10,018 nucleotides of DNA from a virus (IMGVR_UViG_2695420596_000012), one strand, 5' to 3'; shown: positions 1 through 10,018, numbered from the stretch's first letter. The notes: a model not told the origin generated them from the letters alone. Program-made: numbers and translations.

Positions 1-573
1 ATGTTTTGCGAAGAAAAAGTAGCTCAAATGGCTGCATACCTACTTCTTAAGAGAGGTGGGCGCATGGCATATCTGAAATTGATGAAGCTGCTCTATCTGT
101 CTAACCGCCAGTCGATTTTGAAGCATGGCAGGATGATCGGCGAAGATAGCCTTTACTCTATGAAATTTGGACCAGTCATGTCGAATACGCTGAACTTGAT
201 TCGCGGTAAGGCTGAAGGCATTGGTGACTACTGGTACAACTTGATAGAGACGAACGGGCATAATGTATCGTTGCGTTCAGATCCGAGGGAAATGGATGCA
301 GACGAGGTCTTTGATGAATTGAGTCGTGCAGATATCCGGATTTTAGATGAAATCTATTCTCGGTATGGGCATATGAACCGATTTGATCTCGCAAATATGA
401 CGCATTTAGAAAGCGTTTGTCCAGAGTGGCACGATCCTGGCAATTCTCGTAAGCCTATAGACCTGAAAGAAATGCTGATCAGTGAGGGTAAAAGCGAGGA
501 TGAGGCTAATCGCATAATTGGCAAAATGGAAGAATCTCAGAAACTTAAGGAATTTTCTTTGCAATTATCATGA
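1..573 (+). CDS. Panacea-domain (DUF4065) protein, SocA/GepA/PanA-like putative antitoxin; 190 aa. Start coincides with window edge, so the true 5' end could lie upstream.
   Basis: Translation MFCEEKVAQMAAYLLLKRGG..YLKLMKLLYLSNRQSIL..FGPVMSNTLNLIRG matches the remembered Panacea-domain pattern (A.yfl...KL.KLlY...GPV). Stop TGA 571-573 overlaps the next ATG (ATGA), indicating translational coupling. Confidence 0.65.
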   Translation: MFCEEKVAQMAAYLLLKRGGRMAYLKLMKLLYLSNRQSILKHGRMIGEDSLYSMKFGPVMSNTLNLIRGKAEGIGDYWYNLIETNGHNVSLRSDPREMDADEVFDELSRADIRILDEIYSRYGHMNRFDLANMTHLESVCPEWHDPGNSRKPIDLKEMLISEGKSEDEANRIIGKMEESQKLKEFSLQLS

Positions 574-989
574 CGGATTATCAGCCATACAGGAAAGGAA
601 CTGTGCTTGCCCCAACTGGACCATGCAATCATCTTCATGTGATTTGTAATGATCCTGTTTATTACCCCGTTAACGATTGTTATTGTGTTTTAGTTGTTAA
701 TATTTCTAGTATCAAGGATGGTGTCCCCCACGATCCGTCTTGCGTCTTGAATTCTGGTGATCATCGCTTTATCAAGCATCCAAGTTATGTTGTTTACGCT
801 GAAGCTATAATTTGGCGAGTGGATAACATGGTTAGAAAGCAGCGATCGGGTGAGATTTCTGTTCATGATGATATGCCAGAAGCTACATTCAATAGAATTC
901 TGGACGGTTTTGATATCTCTGATGAAGTTACGCCAAAGAACCTTAAATTTAAAAATAAATATTGCGTATCATCTATTGATGATGAGTAA
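570..989 (+). CDS. Hypothetical 139-aa protein, translationally coupled to the Panacea-domain gene; candidate toxin partner of unrecognised family, Cys/His-rich N-terminal half.
   Basis: ATG at 570 overlaps upstream stop by 4 nt. No Shine-Dalgarno of its own, consistent with coupling. No TM segment and no motif I recognise; CNHLHVIC...DCYC...H..C pattern hints at metal binding. Confidence 0.5.
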   Translation: MTDYQPYRKGTVLAPTGPCNHLHVICNDPVYYPVNDCYCVLVVNISSIKDGVPHDPSCVLNSGDHRFIKHPSYVVYAEAIIWRVDNMVRKQRSGEISVHDDMPEATFNRILDGFDISDEVTPKNLKFKNKYCVSSIDDE

Positions 990-1028
990 ACAACAGGAAT
1001 TGTTTCGGTATAACTTCTGGAGTTTTCT

Positions 1029-1202
1029 ATGGAAGATCAAAAAGCAACCAAGCCACAGCTTAAGTTCGACACAATGAAAGCATTCGCAGGTATGGGGGCT
1101 GCTGTTGAAGTTCTGATGAAGGCTGCTCCTAATGCGTTCACTCACGCTACTGTCTCTGGTAAAGAGCAGCAGGGTAAGCTTCGTCGTCGCAAAGCAGCAT
1201 GA
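1029..1202 (+). CDS. Small hypothetical protein, 57 aa (MEDQKATKPQLKFDTMKAF...GKLRRRKAA), not in the supplied ORF track; last gene before the terminator.
   Basis: ATG 1029 preceded by GGAG (1019-1022) with 6-nt spacer. Open to TGA 1200-1202. Followed 20 nt later by a strong intrinsic terminator. Confidence 0.4.
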   Translation: MEDQKATKPQLKFDTMKAFAGMGAAVEVLMKAAPNAFTHATVSGKEQQGKLRRRKAA

Positions 1203-1220: not shown

Positions 1221-1250
1221 GAAAACCCGCCTTTAGGCGGGTTTTTTCTT
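1221..1250. terminator. Rho-independent terminator between convergent operons; stronger in the + direction.
   Basis: Stem AACCCGCC (1224-1231), loop TTTA, stem GGCGGGTT (1236-1243), then T-run 1242-1247. On the minus strand the same hairpin is followed by TTTTC. Sits between the + ORF ending 1202 and the minus ORF whose stop is at 1250-1252. Confidence 0.75.
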
Positions 1251-1531
1251 TAGTGATGTTCTTTGCCCTTCTGTTTGCCTGTTCTGACCTGTTCCCACTC
1301 GATACGTCCTTCTTCTCGTCTTTTGTCTATGTATTCCGCAAGATCCTGAATATTGATGCAACGTTTTGCTTTTTGTGATGTGCCGATGCGATATGTTGGA
1401 ACGGGCAACTTACAAGCGTTTGCTTTTGCTTCTGCTGTGGCTGGACTCATACCAAAGTACTTTTGGCTAACTGCTGAGAGTTCAATGTTTGAGGTATTGA
1501 ATTCAGCCATCAGTAAAAACAAGGTGTTCAT
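1250..1531 (-). CDS. Small DNA-binding protein resembling the pyocin-activator PrtN / excisionase-like family; 93 aa from the ATG at 1529-1531.
   Basis: Minus-strand ORF. ATG (MNTLFLLMAEF...) preceded by GGAG with 6-nt spacer; upstream in-frame codons lack a comparable RBS. Segment KLPVPTYRIGTSQKAKRCINIQDLAEYIDKRREE resembles the PrtN-family signature from memory. Confidence 0.5.
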   Translation of the reverse strand: MNTLFLLMAEFNTSNIELSAVSQKYFGMSPATAEAKANACKLPVPTYRIGTSQKAKRCINIQDLAEYIDKRREEGRIEWEQVRTGKQKGKEHH

Positions 1532-1571: not shown

Positions 1572-2438
1572 TTAATTAATAGCATCTTTGCTCTGAAGTA
1601 CAGCAAATGCCATTAATACCTCTAAAGTATATCGTCTATAAAACTTAACGAATCCAACATAAAAAACATAGACGAAGAAAAAGCTAAGTAGCGTCGAAAT
1701 AGAAATATAAGACACCGCCCCACCTTCTATAGCACGATAAATTAATGTTAGAAATGATATCCAAAATGTAATTACAAATACTAAACAAATATTTCTGCAA
1801 AAACCATATAATGCAACATAGTTTTGAATTTTTGTTTGATGTTGATTAGAAAATTCATAGACGTAATGATAAGCCAATCTGAAAAGATCATCATGAAGAC
1901 CTGTCCTGATGTTTAATAATTTATCGTCTATTCTGAATTTTTTTTCATAACCTTCTTTGATCATTAGCCATGTGGTATTAGCTAATTGAAATGGCAATGA
2001 TTGTGAATAACATAGTTTTTGAGTGGCGTAATCCCATGGTATTATCGGGAATAACATTACTTTGATTATGCAGTATTTTATTTTTCTCTTTGTGTCTTCG
2101 TTCTGTTTGTCACTTGATGGTGTTAAGACGTTTTTTTTGTCATCTGATAACTTATTAAATAGATATTCTGACGGATATTGCAATTCTTCGTTCATATATT
2201 TTTCAATAAAAAATGCGGATGTGATAGATATAAAGTGTCCAGCTATGTAAGATATGATTACTATTGAACCATAGTTCAAAATGCCAAAGATTTGACTTTG
2301 ACCTCTGAGCAATTCAGTTAAGTCAATAACAATATCTAGATCGAATGTCAAACCACAGAAATACATTAATAGGATAAAAAAACCACCTGGTATTAAATAT
2401 CCAAGAAAGTCATAGAATGAGAATGGATTTTGATTCAT
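1572..2438 (-). CDS. AT-rich integral membrane protein of unknown function: two N-terminal and two C-terminal predicted TM helices around a ~130-aa soluble core; 288 aa from ATG.
   Basis: Minus-strand ORF. The track's first codon is TTG; the in-frame ATG at 2436-2438 has GGAG with ~7-nt spacer. Hydrophobic stretches FLGYLIPGGFFILLMYFCGL, IFGILNYGSIVIISYIAGHFISITSAFF, ALYGFCRNICLVFVITFWISFLTLIY, YISISTLLSFFFVYVFYVGFV. Region is visibly far more AT-rich than its flanks. Confidence 0.6.
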   Translation of the reverse strand: MNQNPFSFYDFLGYLIPGGFFILLMYFCGLTFDLDIVIDLTELLRGQSQIFGILNYGSIVIISYIAGHFISITSAFFIEKYMNEELQYPSEYLFNKLSDDKKNVLTPSSDKQNEDTKRKIKYCIIKVMLFPIIPWDYATQKLCYSQSLPFQLANTTWLMIKEGYEKKFRIDDKLLNIRTGLHDDLFRLAYHYVYEFSNQHQTKIQNYVALYGFCRNICLVFVITFWISFLTLIYRAIEGGAVSYISISTLLSFFFVYVFYVGFVKFYRRYTLEVLMAFAVLQSKDAIN

Positions 2439-2546
2439 TGTTGCTCTCCAATAATTTTTCAATTTGTAATATAACCTATATCTATATGTTAATAAATTAC
2501 TTATATGTTCTTTTATGGCAGAGTTTGAATTCGTACGTGCTGATTT

Positions 2547-6224: not shown

Positions 6225-6774
6225 TCATCACTGGAAAGTGGAAAAACAGCCTGAGTGGTACGTGAAAGCTGTCAGAAAAACTATCGCGGCGTTGCCGGAG
6301 GGTTACGCTGAAGCTGCTGAGTGGCTGGATGTAACAGAGAACGCATTATTTAACCGCCTTCGTGCCGATGGCGATCAGATTTTCCCGCTGGGATGGGCAA
6401 TGATTTTACAACGTGCTGGTGGCACTCACTTCATTGCTGACGCTGTGGCGCAGTCTGCAAATGGCGTCTTTGTGTCTCTTCCTGACGTCGAGGATGTGGA
6501 CAATGCCGATATTAACCAGCGTTTACTGGAAGTCATTGAACAGATCGGCAGTTATTCAAAACAGATTCGTTCAGCAATCGAAGACGGTGTAGTGGAACCG
6601 CATGAGAAGACAGCAATTAACGACGAACTGTATCTTTCAATTTCGAAGCTCCAGGAGCATGCAGCACTGGTCTACAAAATCTTCTGCGCTCCAGAAAATA
6701 GTAACGCCCGCGAGTGTGCAGCTCCGGGCGTCGTGGCGTCGATTGCTTCTGGTTGTGGAGAAACTAACGCATGA
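6217..6774 (+). CDS. CII-position early regulatory protein (YdaT/CII-like by position), 185 aa, GTG start; function not established from sequence.
   Basis: GTG 6217 preceded by GGAGG (6206-6210) with 6-nt spacer. Overlaps the cro 3' end by 8 nt. Stop overlaps the next ATG (ATGA at 6771-6774). Confidence 0.6.
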   Translation: MGNHHWKVEKQPEWYVKAVRKTIAALPEGYAEAAEWLDVTENALFNRLRADGDQIFPLGWAMILQRAGGTHFIADAVAQSANGVFVSLPDVEDVDNADINQRLLEVIEQIGSYSKQIRSAIEDGVVEPHEKTAINDELYLSISKLQEHAALVYKIFCAPENSNARECAAPGVVASIASGCGETNA

Positions 6775-7099
6775 ATAGTTTAACGGCAAATAACCGTTTG
6801 TCGCAACAGCTGGTGGTCAGCGTCGCTGAACACCTGTTGTTACGGCATGAATGCAGATTACCAAATCACCTGGCTGTAAGTAACCACAGAGAACTTTACC
6901 TGACTGTGGGGGGCGAGTTGTGCAGGAACTTAACCGCTGGTTTCGTGACGGAAGAGGGCTTTATGTCCATGTTATTCGTTGGGAGCCAGAAACACAGCGC
7001 GTTATCTATCTTCGCAAAGACTACCCGCATGAGTGCTTTAGTCCTTTGTGGAAATTCAGGCGTGATTTTGTTGAGTGTGAAGGACCACCAGCATATTGA
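6771..7099 (+). other. Alternative model: ~109-aa product made from frame 0 (6771-6913) joined to the -1 frame (6914-7099) at a G6 tract; frameshifted gene, programmed -1 slip, or homopolymer sequencing error.
   Basis: Heptamer G GGG GGC (6908-6914) is in X XXY YYZ register for frame 0. The -1 frame opens at 6884 and translates to a protein-like sequence (RVVQELNRWFRDGRGLYVHVIRWEPETQRVIYLRKDYPHECFSPLWKFRRDFVECEGPPAY) ending TGA 7097-7099. Confidence 0.3.
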
Positions 7100-7931
7100 T
7101 TCTGCAATTCCGGGACGTTACACTGCTCAGGCACCTTATAAAGCGGGTGCCGGGATTGGCGTCCTGAAATTGTCAACGGCGATGTATGACGCGCCAGCGT
7201 CTTTTTTATCGTCCGCATTTGCTCACATCCAGATTATGGTGGGCTGGGCGGGGGCACCGAAAGGTGCGCCGGTCTCCGTTGACGCCGGTTACGCCAACCC
7301 CGTCCAGTTCACCACCAGTGAAATTGGCGTTTCCGGTGGTGGAAGTTTTTCACTGTCAACGGAGGCTGCCATCATGGCTACGATCCCAGCCCTCACCCAA
7401 CCTGAAATCACCATTGACAACGGCCAGGCCGTTACCACTTCTTTGGCTGTTGCCAACTTCTTCTCCAAGCGTCACGACGATGTGCTGAAAAAGATCCGCA
7501 CTCTGGATTGTTCCCCAGAGTTTTGTGCCCGCAATTTTGCGGAGACATCGATTTCGGTAAATCAACCGAACGGTGGTACACGCAAGCTCCCTTGCTATCA
7601 AATCACACGAGACGGTTTTGCGTTTCTTGCTATGGGTTTCACGGGTAAACGTGCTGCCCGGTTCAAAGAGGCATACATAAATGCCTTTAACCAGATGGAG
7701 AAACAGCTTTCAAAGCCCGCTGTACCGAGCGACGTTGCACATAACGCCAGCGTTCTCTGTTCCTACATTTCATCAATTCATCAGGTCTGGCTGCAGCAGC
7801 TTTATCCTATGTTGGCAAAAGCCGAATCTCCGCTGGCTGTTAGCTTATATGACTATATTAATGATGCTTCGGCGCTGGCCAGTCTCATAAATTTGTCGCT
7901 GAACCCTTCAGAGGTAAGGGGGCGCAAATGA
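6771..7931 (+). CDS. Long ORF (386 aa) whose C-terminal half is a Rha-family phage regulatory (antirepressor-like) domain; N-terminal ~200 codons are of doubtful structure, and the Rha core probably starts at ATG 7374.
   Basis: Residues from AVTTSLAVANFFSKRHDDVLKKIR to YQITRDGFAFLAMGFTGKRAARFKEAYINAFNQME match the Rha-domain signature from memory. Internal ATG 7374 is preceded by GGAGG (7361-7365). ATG 6771 is coupled to the upstream stop. Frame 0 has no stop between 6771 and 7931. Confidence 0.45.
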   Translation: MNSLTANNRLSQQLVVSVAEHLLLRHECRLPNHLAVSNHRELYLTVGGELCRNLTAGFVTEEGFMSMLFVGSQKHSALSIFAKTTRMSALVLCGNSGVILLSVKDHQHIDSAIPGRYTAQAPYKAGAGIGVLKLSTAMYDAPASFLSSAFAHIQIMVGWAGAPKGAPVSVDAGYANPVQFTTSEIGVSGGGSFSLSTEAAIMATIPALTQPEITIDNGQAVTTSLAVANFFSKRHDDVLKKIRTLDCSPEFCARNFAETSISVNQPNGGTRKLPCYQITRDGFAFLAMGFTGKRAARFKEAYINAFNQMEKQLSKPAVPSDVAHNASVLCSYISSIHQVWLQQLYPMLAKAESPLAVSLYDYINDASALASLINLSLNPSEVRGRK

Positions 7932-8152: not shown

Positions 8153-8290
8153 ACTGTTTTCAGTTTGTGTGCGGATGTGCTTTCGATAACCCGATTCAGC
8201 GCCTGATTATGTTGCGTGTTTTGATGTCGGGTTCCGGACTACAGCCCACTCCATATCTGATTTAATACACTATCCCGGCCGGGAGGAATA

Positions 8291-10018
8291 ATGACATTTA
8301 AACATTATGATGTTGTCAGGGCGGCGTCGCCGTCAGACCTTGCGGAAAAGCTGACACACAAACTGAAAGAGGGCTGGCAGCCGTTTGGTAGTCCGGTGGC
8401 CATAACCCCTTATACCCTGATGCAGGCGATTACAGCAGAAGGTGATGTGGTGGTCAGTGGTGCAACTGAGCCGGATTGGTACTACGTCATCGTACTGGCC
8501 GGGCAGTCCAATGCCATGGCTTACGGTGAAGGGCTTCCGCTGCCGGATTCATACGATGCTCCGGATCCGCGCATTAAACAGCTGGCGCGCCGCAGTACAG
8601 TTACGCCGGGTGGGGCTGCATGCAGATATAACGATATTATTCCGGCCGACCACTGCCTGCATGATGTGCAGGATATGAGTACGCTGAATCATCCGAAGGC
8701 AGACCTGAGCAAAGGGCAGTACGGCTGTGTCGGCCAGGGCTTACATATTGCCAAAAAACTGCTCCCGTATATCCCGAATAACGCGGGGATCCTGCTGGTA
8801 CCATGCTGTCGTGGTGGTTCGGCATTTACCCAGGGCGCGGAGGGGACATTCAGTGCGGACACGGGGGCCAGCCAGGATTCGGCGCGCTGGGGTGTGGGTA
8901 AACCGTTATATCAGGACCTGATTGCGCGCACCAAAGCTGCATTACAGAAGAACCCGAAAAATGTGTTGCTGGCGGTGTGCTGGATGCAGGGAGAGTTTGA
9001 CATGAGCGCCGCCACCCACGCACAGCAACCTGCGCTGTTTACAGCCATGCTGACACAGTTTCGTGCTGACCTCTCCGTGTTTAACGCGCAGTGCCATGGT
9101 GGCAGTGCTGCAGATGTGCCGTGGATTTGTGGTGACACGACGTATTACTGGAAAAATACCTACGGCACCCAGTACAACACCATTTACGGGGCGTACAAAA
9201 ACAGGGAGAGTGAGGGCGTTTATTTTGTGCCCTTCATGACAGACGGTAACGGCGTCAATACCGCCACTAACGCGCCGGCAGAAGATCCGGATATTCCGGC
9301 ATCAGGATATTACGGTGCGGCATCGAGAACGAATGGAAACCAGGTATCATCAAACCGCCCGACACATTTCAGTTCATGGGCGCGCAGGAGCATTATTCCG
9401 GATCGTCTGGCAACCGCTATTCTGAACGCAGCCGGGCGCACCTCAGCCTTCATCAGTGGTAAGGCACCGGAAATCAAACCCTCGCCCGGCGGCAACACGC
9501 CATCGGGTCCGTCTGCAGATACGTCCGTTCGCACAATCTCCCTGCTGCCGGCAGCCGGAGAGGCTGCTGCGCAGGGCTGGAGCATTAAGGATGGCGGAAT
9601 TCAGTTGTCAGATGGTGTATTTAAGATCACCAAGCAGAGCAATAAAACCTGGTCCCTGACGCATCCGGTGGATGACGCAATTACCCTGCTGACACAGGGC
9701 GGCAGACTGAACTGTAAGTTCCGCCTGTCAGGCGCACTGACCAACAATCAGTTCGGGCTGGGGATTTATCTGTATACGGATGCTCCCGTTCCTGATGGTG
9801 TGGCGATGACGGGTACCGGTAATCCGTTCCTGATGTCGTACTTCACTCAGACCACTGACGGCAGAGTGAATCTGATGCATCACAGGAAAGCCGGAAACAC
9901 GAAGCTGGGGGAGTTCGGCGATTACGGTAACGACTGGCAGACGCTGGAGCTGGTGTTCACCGCCGGCAGTGCCACGGTTACTCCGAAACTGAATGGAGTG
10001 GCTGGCCCGGCATTCCAG
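8291..10018 (+). CDS. Prophage-type sialate O-acetylesterase-like protein (NanS-p-like): N-terminal DUF1737, SASA/SGNH hydrolase domain, C-terminal beta-rich probable carbohydrate-binding region; 3'-truncated by window end (576 codons visible).
   Basis: Hand translation from ATG 8291 (GGAGG at 8282-8286) is open to the last base; absent from the ORF track, presumably because no stop falls in the window. Motifs VLAGQSNAMAYGEG (SGNH block I) and WMQGEFD (SASA W-QGE-D). N-terminus MTFKHYDVV...EGWQPFG resembles DUF1737. Confidence 0.8.
   Translation, partial: MTFKHYDVVRAASPSDLAEKLTHKLKEGWQPFGSPVAITPYTLMQAITAEGDVVVSGATEPDWYYVIVLAGQSNAMAYGEGLPLPDSYDAPDPRIKQLARRSTVTPGGAACRYNDIIPADHCLHDVQDMSTLNHPKADLSKGQYGCVGQGLHIAKKLLPYIPNNAGILLVPCCRGGSAFTQGAEGTFSADTGASQDSARWGVGKPLYQDLIARTKAALQKNPKNVLLAVCWMQGEFDMSAATHAQQPALFTAMLTQFRADLSVFNAQCHGGSAADVPWICGDTTYYWKNTYGTQYNTIYGAYKNRESEGVYFVPFMTDGNGVNTATNAPAEDPDIPASGYYGAASRTNGNQVSSNRPTHFSSWARRSIIPDRLATAILNAAGRTSAFISGKAPEIKPSPGGNTPSGPSADTSVRTISLLPAAGEAAAQGWSIKDGGIQLSDGVFKITKQSNKTWSLTHPVDDAITLLTQGGRLNCKFRLSGALTNNQFGLGIYLYTDAPVPDGVAMTGTGNPFLMSYFTQTTDGRVNLMHHRKAGNTKLGEFGDYGNDWQTLELVFTAGSATVTPKLNGVAGPAFQ

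What the first reader, a model, noticed from the sequence alone, without database searches (positions are those of the whole stretch)
1..1202. Panacea-domain antitoxin-like gene coupled to an unrecognised 139-aa partner: candidate novel PanA/PanT-type toxin-antitoxin or defence module
The first gene carries a clear Panacea (DUF4065) signature, a domain reported to act as a promiscuous antitoxin paired with many unrelated toxin families. Its stop overlaps the start of a 139-aa protein that matches no fold or motif I recognise (Cys/His-rich N-terminal half, no TM segments). A third, 57-aa RBS-bearing ORF follows before the terminator. Overlap, order and placement next to an AT-rich moron at the end of the leftward operon fit an accessory toxin-antitoxin or anti-phage module with an uncharacterised effector.
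Basis: partly seen in the sequence, partly recalled or inferred. Interest (0 to 1): 0.78.

Follow-up and report, generated by a model that had tools for sequence, protein, structure and literature searches.

The report
Prophage PanA/PanT toxin-antitoxin pair, MazF-fold toxin
The two overlapping genes are a real Panacea-type toxin-antitoxin pair carried on an E. coli prophage, but the "unrecognised" partner belongs to an already published, experimentally validated MazF-shaped toxin family, so this is a new member of a known kind.

Summary
ORF1 (1-573) scores as Panacea/PF13274 (70.9 bits against a cut-off of 25.7). Its stop overlaps the ATG of a 139-aa ORF (570-989) in an ATGA. A 57-aa ORF and a terminator follow.

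A PanA gene sits directly upstream in all 35 testable genome loci and in all 16 other loci examined. These lie in unrelated prophages, satellites and islands across Proteobacteria.

The pair is a swappable cassette of about 1.2 kb at the dusA-attachment end of a lambdoid prophage, present in 208 of 5426 complete E. coli genomes. The 57-aa ORF belongs to the phage backbone, not to the module.

Toxicity, RNase activity and any anti-phage role are untested for this copy. Novelty: new member of a known kind. Interest is low to moderate.

The parts
1..573 (+). panA: 190-aa antitoxin. Panacea domain at residues 27-137, plus a conserved C-terminal extension of about 50 aa (residues about 138-190).
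   Evidence: Pfam PF13274, E 2.2e-19, 70.9 bits against a cut-off of 25.7. RefSeq WP_000458584.1 is named 'Panacea domain-containing protein'. The alignment of 40+ partners shows a conserved N-terminus MFSE(E/Q)(K/R)VAQMAAYLL and a conserved C-terminal tail W-x-DP-x-GSS-x-PI.... A GAGG RBS and a weak promoter-like site lie upstream, outside the window.
570..989 (+). panT: 139-aa toxin with the MazF/Kid/CcdB fold, cluster T6 of Kurata et al. 2022. Translationally coupled to panA through an ATGA overlap.
990..1015 (.). Right-hand edge of the swappable PanAT cassette. Homology to prophages that carry a different cargo resumes at about 1016.
   Evidence: mEp460 and about 350 E. coli genomes without PanAT match only from 1016 onwards. 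The left edge lies about 190 nt upstream of window base 1, about 62 nt past the dusA' fragment.
1029..1202 (+). 57-aa ORF (PHROG 2741). It is a phage-backbone gene lying between the cassette and the terminator. It is probably co-transcribed but is not part of the TA module.
   Evidence: PHROG 2741, E 1.5e-35, full length. Present in 564 of 5426 E. coli genomes, against 208 for PanAT. Retained in mEp460 and in O157 and other prophages behind an unrelated 177-aa gene. Absent beside PanAT in Shewanella, Vibrio, Proteus, Pantoea and other E. coli loci.
1221..1256 (+). Intrinsic terminator (GAAAACCCGCC-TTTA-GGCGGGTTTTT plus a T-tract). It ends the rightward unit and lies just downstream of the convergent PrtN-family gene, whose ORF as listed by the ORF listing spans 1250-1606 on the - strand.
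   Evidence: Terminator scan on L001 7221-7246, equal to window 1221-1246: 11 pairs, 6 of them GC. The sequence was also read directly.

Best explanation
This is a type II PanA/PanT toxin-antitoxin module of the T6 class.

Anatomy and expression (inferred from sequence): panA and panT are transcribed rightward from the cassette's own upstream region, close to the prophage's dusA attachment end. They are translationally coupled through an ATGA overlap.

Toxin (fold shown; activity inferred from the homologue): PanT is a 139-aa MazF-fold protein that arrests growth by blocking protein synthesis. It most likely cleaves RNA.

Antitoxin (inferred from the homologue): PanA binds PanT directly and keeps it inactive. 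PanA consists of a Panacea domain plus a conserved acidic C-terminal tail of about 50 aa. That tail may be the neutralising element, by analogy with MazE and Phd-C tails.

Cassette (shown): the pair is a mobile cassette of about 1.2 kb, found in moron slots of many unrelated temperate phages and islands.

Biological role (inferred): its pay-off to the prophage is most likely abortive-infection defence of the lysogen, retention of the prophage (addiction), or both.

Shown here: domain identity, fold, homology to the validated toxin, strict gene pairing, and cassette boundaries. Inferred: toxicity of this copy, RNase chemistry, the neutralising role of the PanA tail, and the biological role.
For: PanA domain: Pfam, 70.9 bits.

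Link to the literature: Kurata et al. 2022 list cluster T6, annotated 'EndoA/PemK/MazF-family RNAses', antitoxin first, overlaps of -4 or -1. The list includes Pantoea septica LMG 5345, Yersiniaceae 2016Iso4, Salinivibrio socompensis S35, Halomonas meridiana, Halomonas stevensii and P. moraviensis BS3668. My genome scan finds this family in exactly those genomes: L024, L023 and L036, with gene spacings of -4 and +1 as tabulated for Pantoea and Salinivibrio. The Halomonas and P. moraviensis members appear.

Direct BLASTP to the P. moraviensis protein gives 43% identity and E 6e-34. That PanT was toxic, was neutralised by PanA, co-purified with PanA, and specifically reduced 35S-Met incorporation (PMC8832971).

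Pairing: 35 of 35 plus 16 of 16 loci. PanA and PanT scores fall together, from Enterobacterales to Alphaproteobacteria.

Contexts are accessory slots. They include: downstream of cI in Pantoea; beside the tail fibre and an Abi_2 gene in Proteus; a P4-like island in Shewanella; and a P2-like Pseudomonas phage.

Cassette swap: an unrelated 177-aa gene occupies the same att-proximal slot in other prophages.
Against: No experiment exists on this E. coli copy in the searched literature.

Kurata et al. found several predicted PanTs non-toxic in E. coli, so toxicity is not guaranteed.

There is no sequence-level link to PemK/MazF. Pfam gives none. Only 1 of 109 family members hits PemK_toxin, at E 0.11. 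The PDB profile search finds nothing. hhalign against MazF+ChpB gives probability 0.08.

The long beta1-beta2 loop that carries MazF's catalytic Arg appears to be missing. The family's conserved residues are His21, Asp55, Cys58 and His65. RNase chemistry is therefore assumed, not shown.

The promoter call is weak: 9 of 12 matches, and fewer sites than in shuffled sequence.

P0370 was matched to the validated WP_083201923.1 by genome and family, not by accession.

A defence role is only suggested by position. PADLOC has no model for either protein.
Confidence: 0.75

Rival explanations
1. PanT is a CcdB-like poison of DNA gyrase, or of another non-RNA target, rather than a MazF-like RNase. The module would still be a TA pair, but it would kill through DNA damage.
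Confidence: 0.07
2. The pair is not an active toxin-antitoxin system in E. coli. Either this copy is non-toxic, or the two proteins serve another phage function, such as regulation or counter-defence, and merely resemble a TA pair.
For: Several bioinformatically predicted PanAT pairs, including an E. coli prophage pair of cluster T1, were 'not toxic' when tested. Ernits et al. 2023 argue that the Panacea domain may be a sensor rather than a neutraliser. No experiment exists on this copy.
Against: The T1 pair is a different cluster. Its Salmonella phage member (Emek) is not hit by tblastn with this PanT, though I could not confirm that Emek is in the collection. This protein is a clear homologue of a validated toxin. 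The conserved core residues are intact in the window copy. The pair is kept together with an intact ATGA overlap across more than 50 loci and at 98-100% identity in 206 E. coli genomes.
Confidence: 0.13
3. This is a three-gene system in which the 57-aa protein is a functional third component, for example a chaperone, a regulator or a second antitoxin.
For: The 57-aa ORF lies 39 nt after panT on the same strand. It has its own RBS and sits before the only terminator.
Against: It is never found beside the pair outside this prophage lineage. It persists without PanAT in about 350 E. coli genomes and in phage mEp460. The homology break between cassette and backbone falls between panT and this ORF, at about 1015.
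Confidence: 0.05

Closest known systems
PanAT of Pseudomonas moraviensis LMG 24280/BS3668 (PanT cluster T6; Kurata et al. 2022, PNAS, PMC8832971)
   Same: Same gene order (antitoxin first) with overlapping or abutting genes. The PanA has the same length and N-terminus: the authors' corrected MIFSEQKVAQ fits the family consensus MFSEQRVAQ. PanT is 43% identical, E 6e-34. Neither has a Pfam or CDD hit, and both show MazF-like structure.
   Different: The host and vehicle differ: here an E. coli lambdoid prophage cassette at dusA, there a locus labelled 'NotPhage'. This copy has a 7-aa longer C-terminus. It has not been tested experimentally.
MazEF / Kid-Kis (PemIK) / ChpBS type II TA systems
   Different: The antitoxin is a Panacea-domain protein, not an AbrB/MazE-type DNA-binding protein. 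There is no detectable sequence similarity. The catalytic-loop region is short, and there are two extra C-terminal helices (residues 104-131). The conserved residues are His21, Asp55, Cys58 and His65 rather than Arg29 and Thr52.
SocAB (type VI TA, Caulobacter)
   Same: SocA is the founding Panacea-domain antitoxin. ORF1 shares that domain.
   Different: ORF1 fails the NCBIfam SocA equivalog model, at 14.4 bits against a cut-off of 190. The partner is not SocB, which is cluster T10 in Kurata et al.. T6 PanA binds its toxin directly rather than acting as a ClpXP adaptor (PMC8832971).
CcdAB (F plasmid)
   Different: It scores lower than MazF-type toxins. The validated homologue blocks translation, not replication.

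Membership tests
PanA (Panacea / DUF4065 / PF13274 antitoxins) | Pfam PF13274 match above the gathering score | tested here: met
   70.9 bits against 25.7, E 2.2e-19, residues 27-137.
PanA (Panacea / DUF4065 / PF13274 antitoxins) | Encoded no more than 100 nt from a partner gene in an architecture conserved in at least 2 species, and not part of a longer conserved operon (criteria of Kurata et al.) | tested here: met
   4-nt overlap here. A PanA gene lies directly upstream in 35 of 35 testable genome loci and in 16 of 16 further loci, from Gamma-, Beta- and Alphaproteobacteria. The flanking genes differ between loci.
PanA (Panacea / DUF4065 / PF13274 antitoxins) | Neutralises and physically binds its cognate toxin | not testable with these tools
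   Shown only for the P. moraviensis homologue (PMC8832971).
PanT cluster T6 (Kurata et al. 2022) | Sequence homology to T6 members, including the validated P. moraviensis PanT | tested here: met
   43% identity over 120 aa, E 6e-34, to P0370 (SDU72800.1, P. moraviensis, locus tag SAMN04490196_4922). The family is found in the T6-listed genomes Pantoea septica LMG 5345, Chimaeribacter/Yersiniaceae 2016-Iso4 and Salinivibrio socompensis S35. Caveat: P0370 was matched to WP_083201923.1 by genome and family, not by accession.
PanT cluster T6 (Kurata et al. 2022) | Toxic on expression, with specific inhibition of protein synthesis | not testable with these tools
   Reported for the homologue only.
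MazF/PemK/Kid endoribonuclease family (PF02452) | Sequence-profile match to PemK_toxin | tested here: not met
   No hit for the window protein. 1 of 109 diverse family members hits, at E 0.11. The PDB profile search is empty. hhalign against MazF+ChpB gives probability 0.08.
MazF/PemK/Kid endoribonuclease family (PF02452) | MazF/CcdB-type SH3-like barrel fold | tested here: met
MazF/PemK/Kid endoribonuclease family (PF02452) | Catalytic residues equivalent to E. coli MazF Arg29 and Thr52 (residue numbers from my own knowledge, not tested) | tested here: inconclusive
   The only hhalign segment puts Ser46 opposite Thr52, but it is not significant. No conserved Arg is present; His21 is invariant and lies at the start of strand 2.
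SocAB type VI TA | SocA equivalog model (NF047745) and a SocB-type toxin partner | tested here: not met
   14.4 bits against a cut-off of 190. The partner has the MazF fold, whereas SocB is cluster T10.
Known anti-phage defence systems (PADLOC-DB v2) | Match to a defence-system protein model | tested here: not met
   No PADLOC hit for PanA, PanT or the 57-aa protein at E up to 1.

The most novel reading that the evidence does not exclude
T6 PanT proteins may be a large sequence-orphan branch of the MazF fold. The family has about 3000 clusters at 50% identity and no Pfam model. Its members may have replaced the canonical Arg/Thr catalytic pair with a His21/Asp55/His65 constellation on a short-loop scaffold. 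They would then have a different substrate or chemistry from MazF, for example a specific tRNA or rRNA target, or a non-nucleolytic mode of action. In prophages the module would act as an abortive-infection system in which the Panacea domain senses a phage cue.
Probability: 0.22. Interest if true: 0.55.

Novelty: new member of a known kind. Interest (0 to 1): 0.3.

Why it matters
The result assigns a function to a gene pair that RefSeq labels 'Panacea domain-containing protein / hypothetical protein' in about 4% of complete E. coli genomes. These include O103, O25b:H4 and avian pathogenic strains.

It corrects the toxin's start codon. It also shows the pair to be a discrete cassette that alternates with another cargo at the dusA-proximal end of a common prophage lineage.

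The T6 toxin family is large (about 3000 clusters at 50% identity) and has no Pfam model. Its conserved residues differ from those of MazF. An E. coli-native, prophage-borne representative is therefore a convenient system for working out its target. It would also let one test whether PanAT modules defend lysogens against other phages.

None of this would surprise a specialist, because the family and its mode of action were published in 2022.

Tried and rejected
(1) Sequence-family searches for the 139-aa protein in Pfam, NCBIfam, PADLOC and PDB sequences gave only noise: ICMT, DapC and ynzC.

(2) A Pfam scan of 109 diverse family members, looking for a bridge to PemK_toxin, gave 1 of 109 at E 0.11, which I treat as noise.

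(3) hhalign of the 109-sequence profile against E. coli MazF+ChpB gave probability 0.08. The two-sequence template is too thin, so residue mapping to the MazF active site remains unresolved.

(4) A Zn-binding Cys/His site was considered because of the H21/H23/C26/C58/H65 pattern. I rejected it as an essential feature because C26 and C58 are replaced in some members (Met, Val), and H23 and C26 are not in the nearly invariant set across 109 members.

(5) I checked whether the family equals cluster T1, whose E. coli MOD1 and Salmonella phage Emek pairs were 'not toxic' in Kurata et al. I rejected this. T1 is a separate cluster, and Emek is not hit by tblastn, though I could not confirm that Emek is in the phage collection.

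(6) I checked whether the alternative 177-aa cargo is a diverged PanA. It shows no similarity and has no Pfam hit.

(7) The afdb50 fold library was unavailable.

(8) P0370 could not be looked up for its genomic context.

(9) The promoter scan upstream of panA gave one 9-of-12 site, which is not above the expectation from shuffles.

Full report
**Observation.** The window opens on the ATG of a 190-aa ORF (1-573, +). This ORF matches Pfam PF13274 (SocA_Panacea) at 70.9 bits against a gathering score of 25.7, over residues 27-137. RefSeq names it 'Panacea domain-containing protein'. Its TGA overlaps the ATG of a 139-aa ORF (570-989) in an ATGA. A 57-aa ORF (1029-1202) follows, with a GGAG 8 nt upstream of its start. 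After it comes a strong hairpin terminator at 1221-1246 with a T-tract.

One correction to public annotation. PGAP starts the second gene at GTG 603. However, the N-terminus MTxYxPYRKGTVLAP encoded from ATG 570 is conserved across 37 homologues. The 139-aa reading and the translational coupling are therefore right.

**Genomic setting.** The window is a lambdoid prophage of E. coli integrated in dusA. In strain E2 the order is as follows:
- zur, yjbLM, and a 5' dusA fragment;
- 253 nt further on, panA, panT and the 57-aa ORF;
- the terminator;
- then the convergent leftward operon: a PrtN-family gene (PHROG 'excisionase'), a 296-aa membrane protein, yfdR, yfdQ, yfdP, and a cI-like repressor.

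The module therefore sits at the extreme att-proximal end of the prophage and is transcribed towards the early-left operon.

**What the partner is.** The 139-aa protein has no hit in Pfam, NCBIfam, PADLOC or PDB sequences. With a 37-sequence alignment, AlphaFold2 gives a confident model (pLDDT 91.9, pTM 0.86). It shows a five-strand barrel followed by three helices.

**Link to the literature.** Kurata et al. 2022 (PMC8832971) surveyed DUF4065/Panacea neighbourhoods and defined 88 toxin clusters. Their cluster T6 is annotated by HHpred as 'EndoA/PemK/MazF-family RNAses'. It is antitoxin-first, with overlaps of -4 or -1. It lists Proteus vulgaris, Pluralibacter gergoviae, Pantoea septica LMG 5345, Yersiniaceae bacterium 2016Iso4, Salinivibrio socompensis S35, Halomonas meridiana and H. 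stevensii, several Alphaproteobacteria, and Pseudomonas moraviensis BS3668.

A scan of GTDB species genomes with my alignment recovered this family in Pantoea septica LMG 5345 (L024), Chimaeribacter coloradensis 2016-Iso4 (L023) and Salinivibrio socompensis S35 (L036). It also recovered Sphingomonadales, Rhizobiales, Acetobacteraceae and Burkholderiales. The gene spacings in Pantoea (-4) and Salinivibrio (+1) equal those tabulated.

Through a Pseudomonas phage homologue I reached the P. moraviensis protein itself: SDU72800.1, locus tag SAMN04490196_4922, on a 6.09-Mb contig. The window protein is 43% identical to it over 120 residues, E 6e-34.

That P. moraviensis PanT was toxic in E. coli and was neutralised by its PanA. 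It co-purified with PanA and specifically reduced 35S-methionine incorporation. The authors' corrected PanA N-terminus (MIFSEQKVAQ) fits the consensus of the PanAs paired with this toxin family, MFSE(E/Q)(K/R)VAQMAAYLL.

One caveat applies. I matched the protein to the published accession WP_083201923.1 by genome and family, not by accession string.

**Conservation of the pair.** In 37 genome loci, a PanA homologue lies immediately upstream on the same strand in 35. The other two are contig ends with no room to test. The same holds for 16 loci from five further homologues. PanA and PanT similarity scores decline together from Enterobacterales to Alphaproteobacteria, consistent with co-inheritance.

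The flanks are unrelated to one another, and all are accessory slots of mobile elements:
- a P4-like island in Shewanella, with AlpA and an integrase;
- next to an S24 repressor in a Vibrio element;
- after a polyvalent protein in another E. coli prophage;
- between the tail fibre and an Abi_2 / S8-peptidase island in Proteus;
- directly downstream of cI in Pantoea prophages;
- in a P2-like Pseudomonas phage, where the toxin gene is not even annotated.

**The cassette and the 57-aa ORF.** PanAT (1-989) occurs in 208 of 5426 complete E. coli genomes. The 57-aa-ORF/PrtN junction (1016-1300) occurs in 564. In the genomes without PanAT, and in phage mEp460, the same slot between the dusA fragment and the 57-aa ORF holds a single 177-aa gene. 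That gene has no Pfam domain and no similarity to PanA.

Homology between the two prophage types breaks about 62 nt past the dusA fragment and resumes at window position about 1016. PanAT plus about 190 nt of its own upstream sequence is therefore a swappable cassette of about 1.2 kb. The 57-aa ORF (PHROG 2741) is backbone, not a third component. The cassette is 38-44% GC. One weak sigma-70-like site lies in its upstream region (TTGACC-17-TAAACT), but this is not above the shuffle expectation.

**Mechanism.** The following is shown:
- the fold;
- homology to a toxin that blocks translation;
- coupling to a Panacea antitoxin;
- mobility of the pair as a unit.

The following is inferred. PanT arrests translation, probably by RNA cleavage. 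PanA neutralises it by direct binding. All PanAs of this lineage carry a conserved, charged tail of about 50 aa after the Pfam domain. Ernits et al. 2023 show that PanA extensions can be the neutralising element while Panacea itself may act as a sensor. By analogy the tail is a candidate for occupying the toxin's substrate groove, as the MazE tail does in MazF. This last point is a hypothesis.

The RNase assignment is weaker than the fold assignment. There is no sequence-profile link to PemK/MazF. The beta1-beta2 hairpin is short where MazF carries its catalytic Arg loop. Across 109 members at 25-43% identity, the invariant or near-invariant residues are His21, Asp55, Cys58, Gly63, His65, Phe67, Ser72, Tyr76, Gly113 and Ser117. 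The only hhalign segment puts Ser46 opposite MazF Thr52, but it is not significant. The MazF residue numbers (Arg29, Thr52) are from my own knowledge.

**Biological role.** The moron-type positions, especially the rex-like slot after cI and the proximity to Abi genes, fit a lysogen-expressed abortive-infection or exclusion function. Prophage addiction is equally compatible. No PADLOC model matches either protein. I found no paper that tests this family against phages.

**Rivals.**
- A CcdB-like gyrase poison is disfavoured by the ranking of fold matches and by the homologue's translation-specific effect.
- A non-toxic or otherwise non-TA pair cannot be excluded without an experiment, since some predicted PanTs were non-toxic. 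Those belong to other clusters, and this copy keeps all conserved residues.
- A three-gene system is contradicted by the distribution of the 57-aa ORF.

**Verdict.** This is a new, untested member of a published and experimentally validated PanAT class.

The residual interest lies in three things:
- the size of this Pfam-less MazF-fold family: 3017 clusters at 50% identity with E <= 1e-3, and 1284 with E <= 1e-10;
- its non-canonical conserved residues;
- the availability of an E. coli-native prophage copy for testing its target and any defence role.

Noticed in passing
window 1572-2462 (-): A 296-aa multi-pass membrane protein lies in a stretch of about 30% GC at the end of the leftward operon. 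It gives weak hits to SieB (Pfam, E 0.0014, below the cut-off) and to Csx27 (PADLOC, E 2e-5), and it matches PHROG 12528 (unknown function). It is a candidate superinfection-exclusion moron, next to but separate from PanAT.
   Followed up: partly
window 7131-7207 and 7232-7319 (+): Rfam finds isrK (62 bits) and C4 antisense RNA (81 bits) inside the 5' part of the ORF annotated as a 386-aa 'Rha family phage regulatory protein' (6771-7931). This looks like a P1/P7-type C4-antirepressor immunity unit, and the long ORF call probably over-extends upstream.
   Followed up: no
window 570-602; L057 1483-1878 (Pseudomonas phage Sirocco): Public annotation of the toxin gene is poor. PGAP starts it at GTG 603, losing 11 conserved residues. 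In phage Sirocco the gene is not annotated at all, and a small opposite-strand ORF is called in its place.
   Followed up: yes
L002 3284-3817 (mEp460_023); L058, L059 and L060 at about 2281-2817: A 177-aa protein (WP_000956557.1) of unknown function is the alternative cargo at the same dusA-proximal slot in most related prophages, including an O157:H7 strain. It has no Pfam hit and no similarity to PanA.
   Followed up: partly
window 8230-10018: This stretch matches part of a 'DUF6645 domain-containing protein' gene. In strain E2 that gene lies about 7.8 kb further from panA than it does in the window. The window's prophage therefore differs from E2 by a deletion or replacement after the Rha gene. 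The ORF runs off the window end, so the ORF listing does not list it.
   Followed up: partly
L001 5643-5808 (upstream of the window): The displaced 5' fragment of dusA and about 60 nt of conserved phage sequence mark the attachment junction. The PrtN-type putative excisionase is at this end, and no integrase lies between it and the junction. In mEp460 the integrase sits on the other side of the cargo slot, which suggests that attP lies between int and the excisionase gene.
   Followed up: partly
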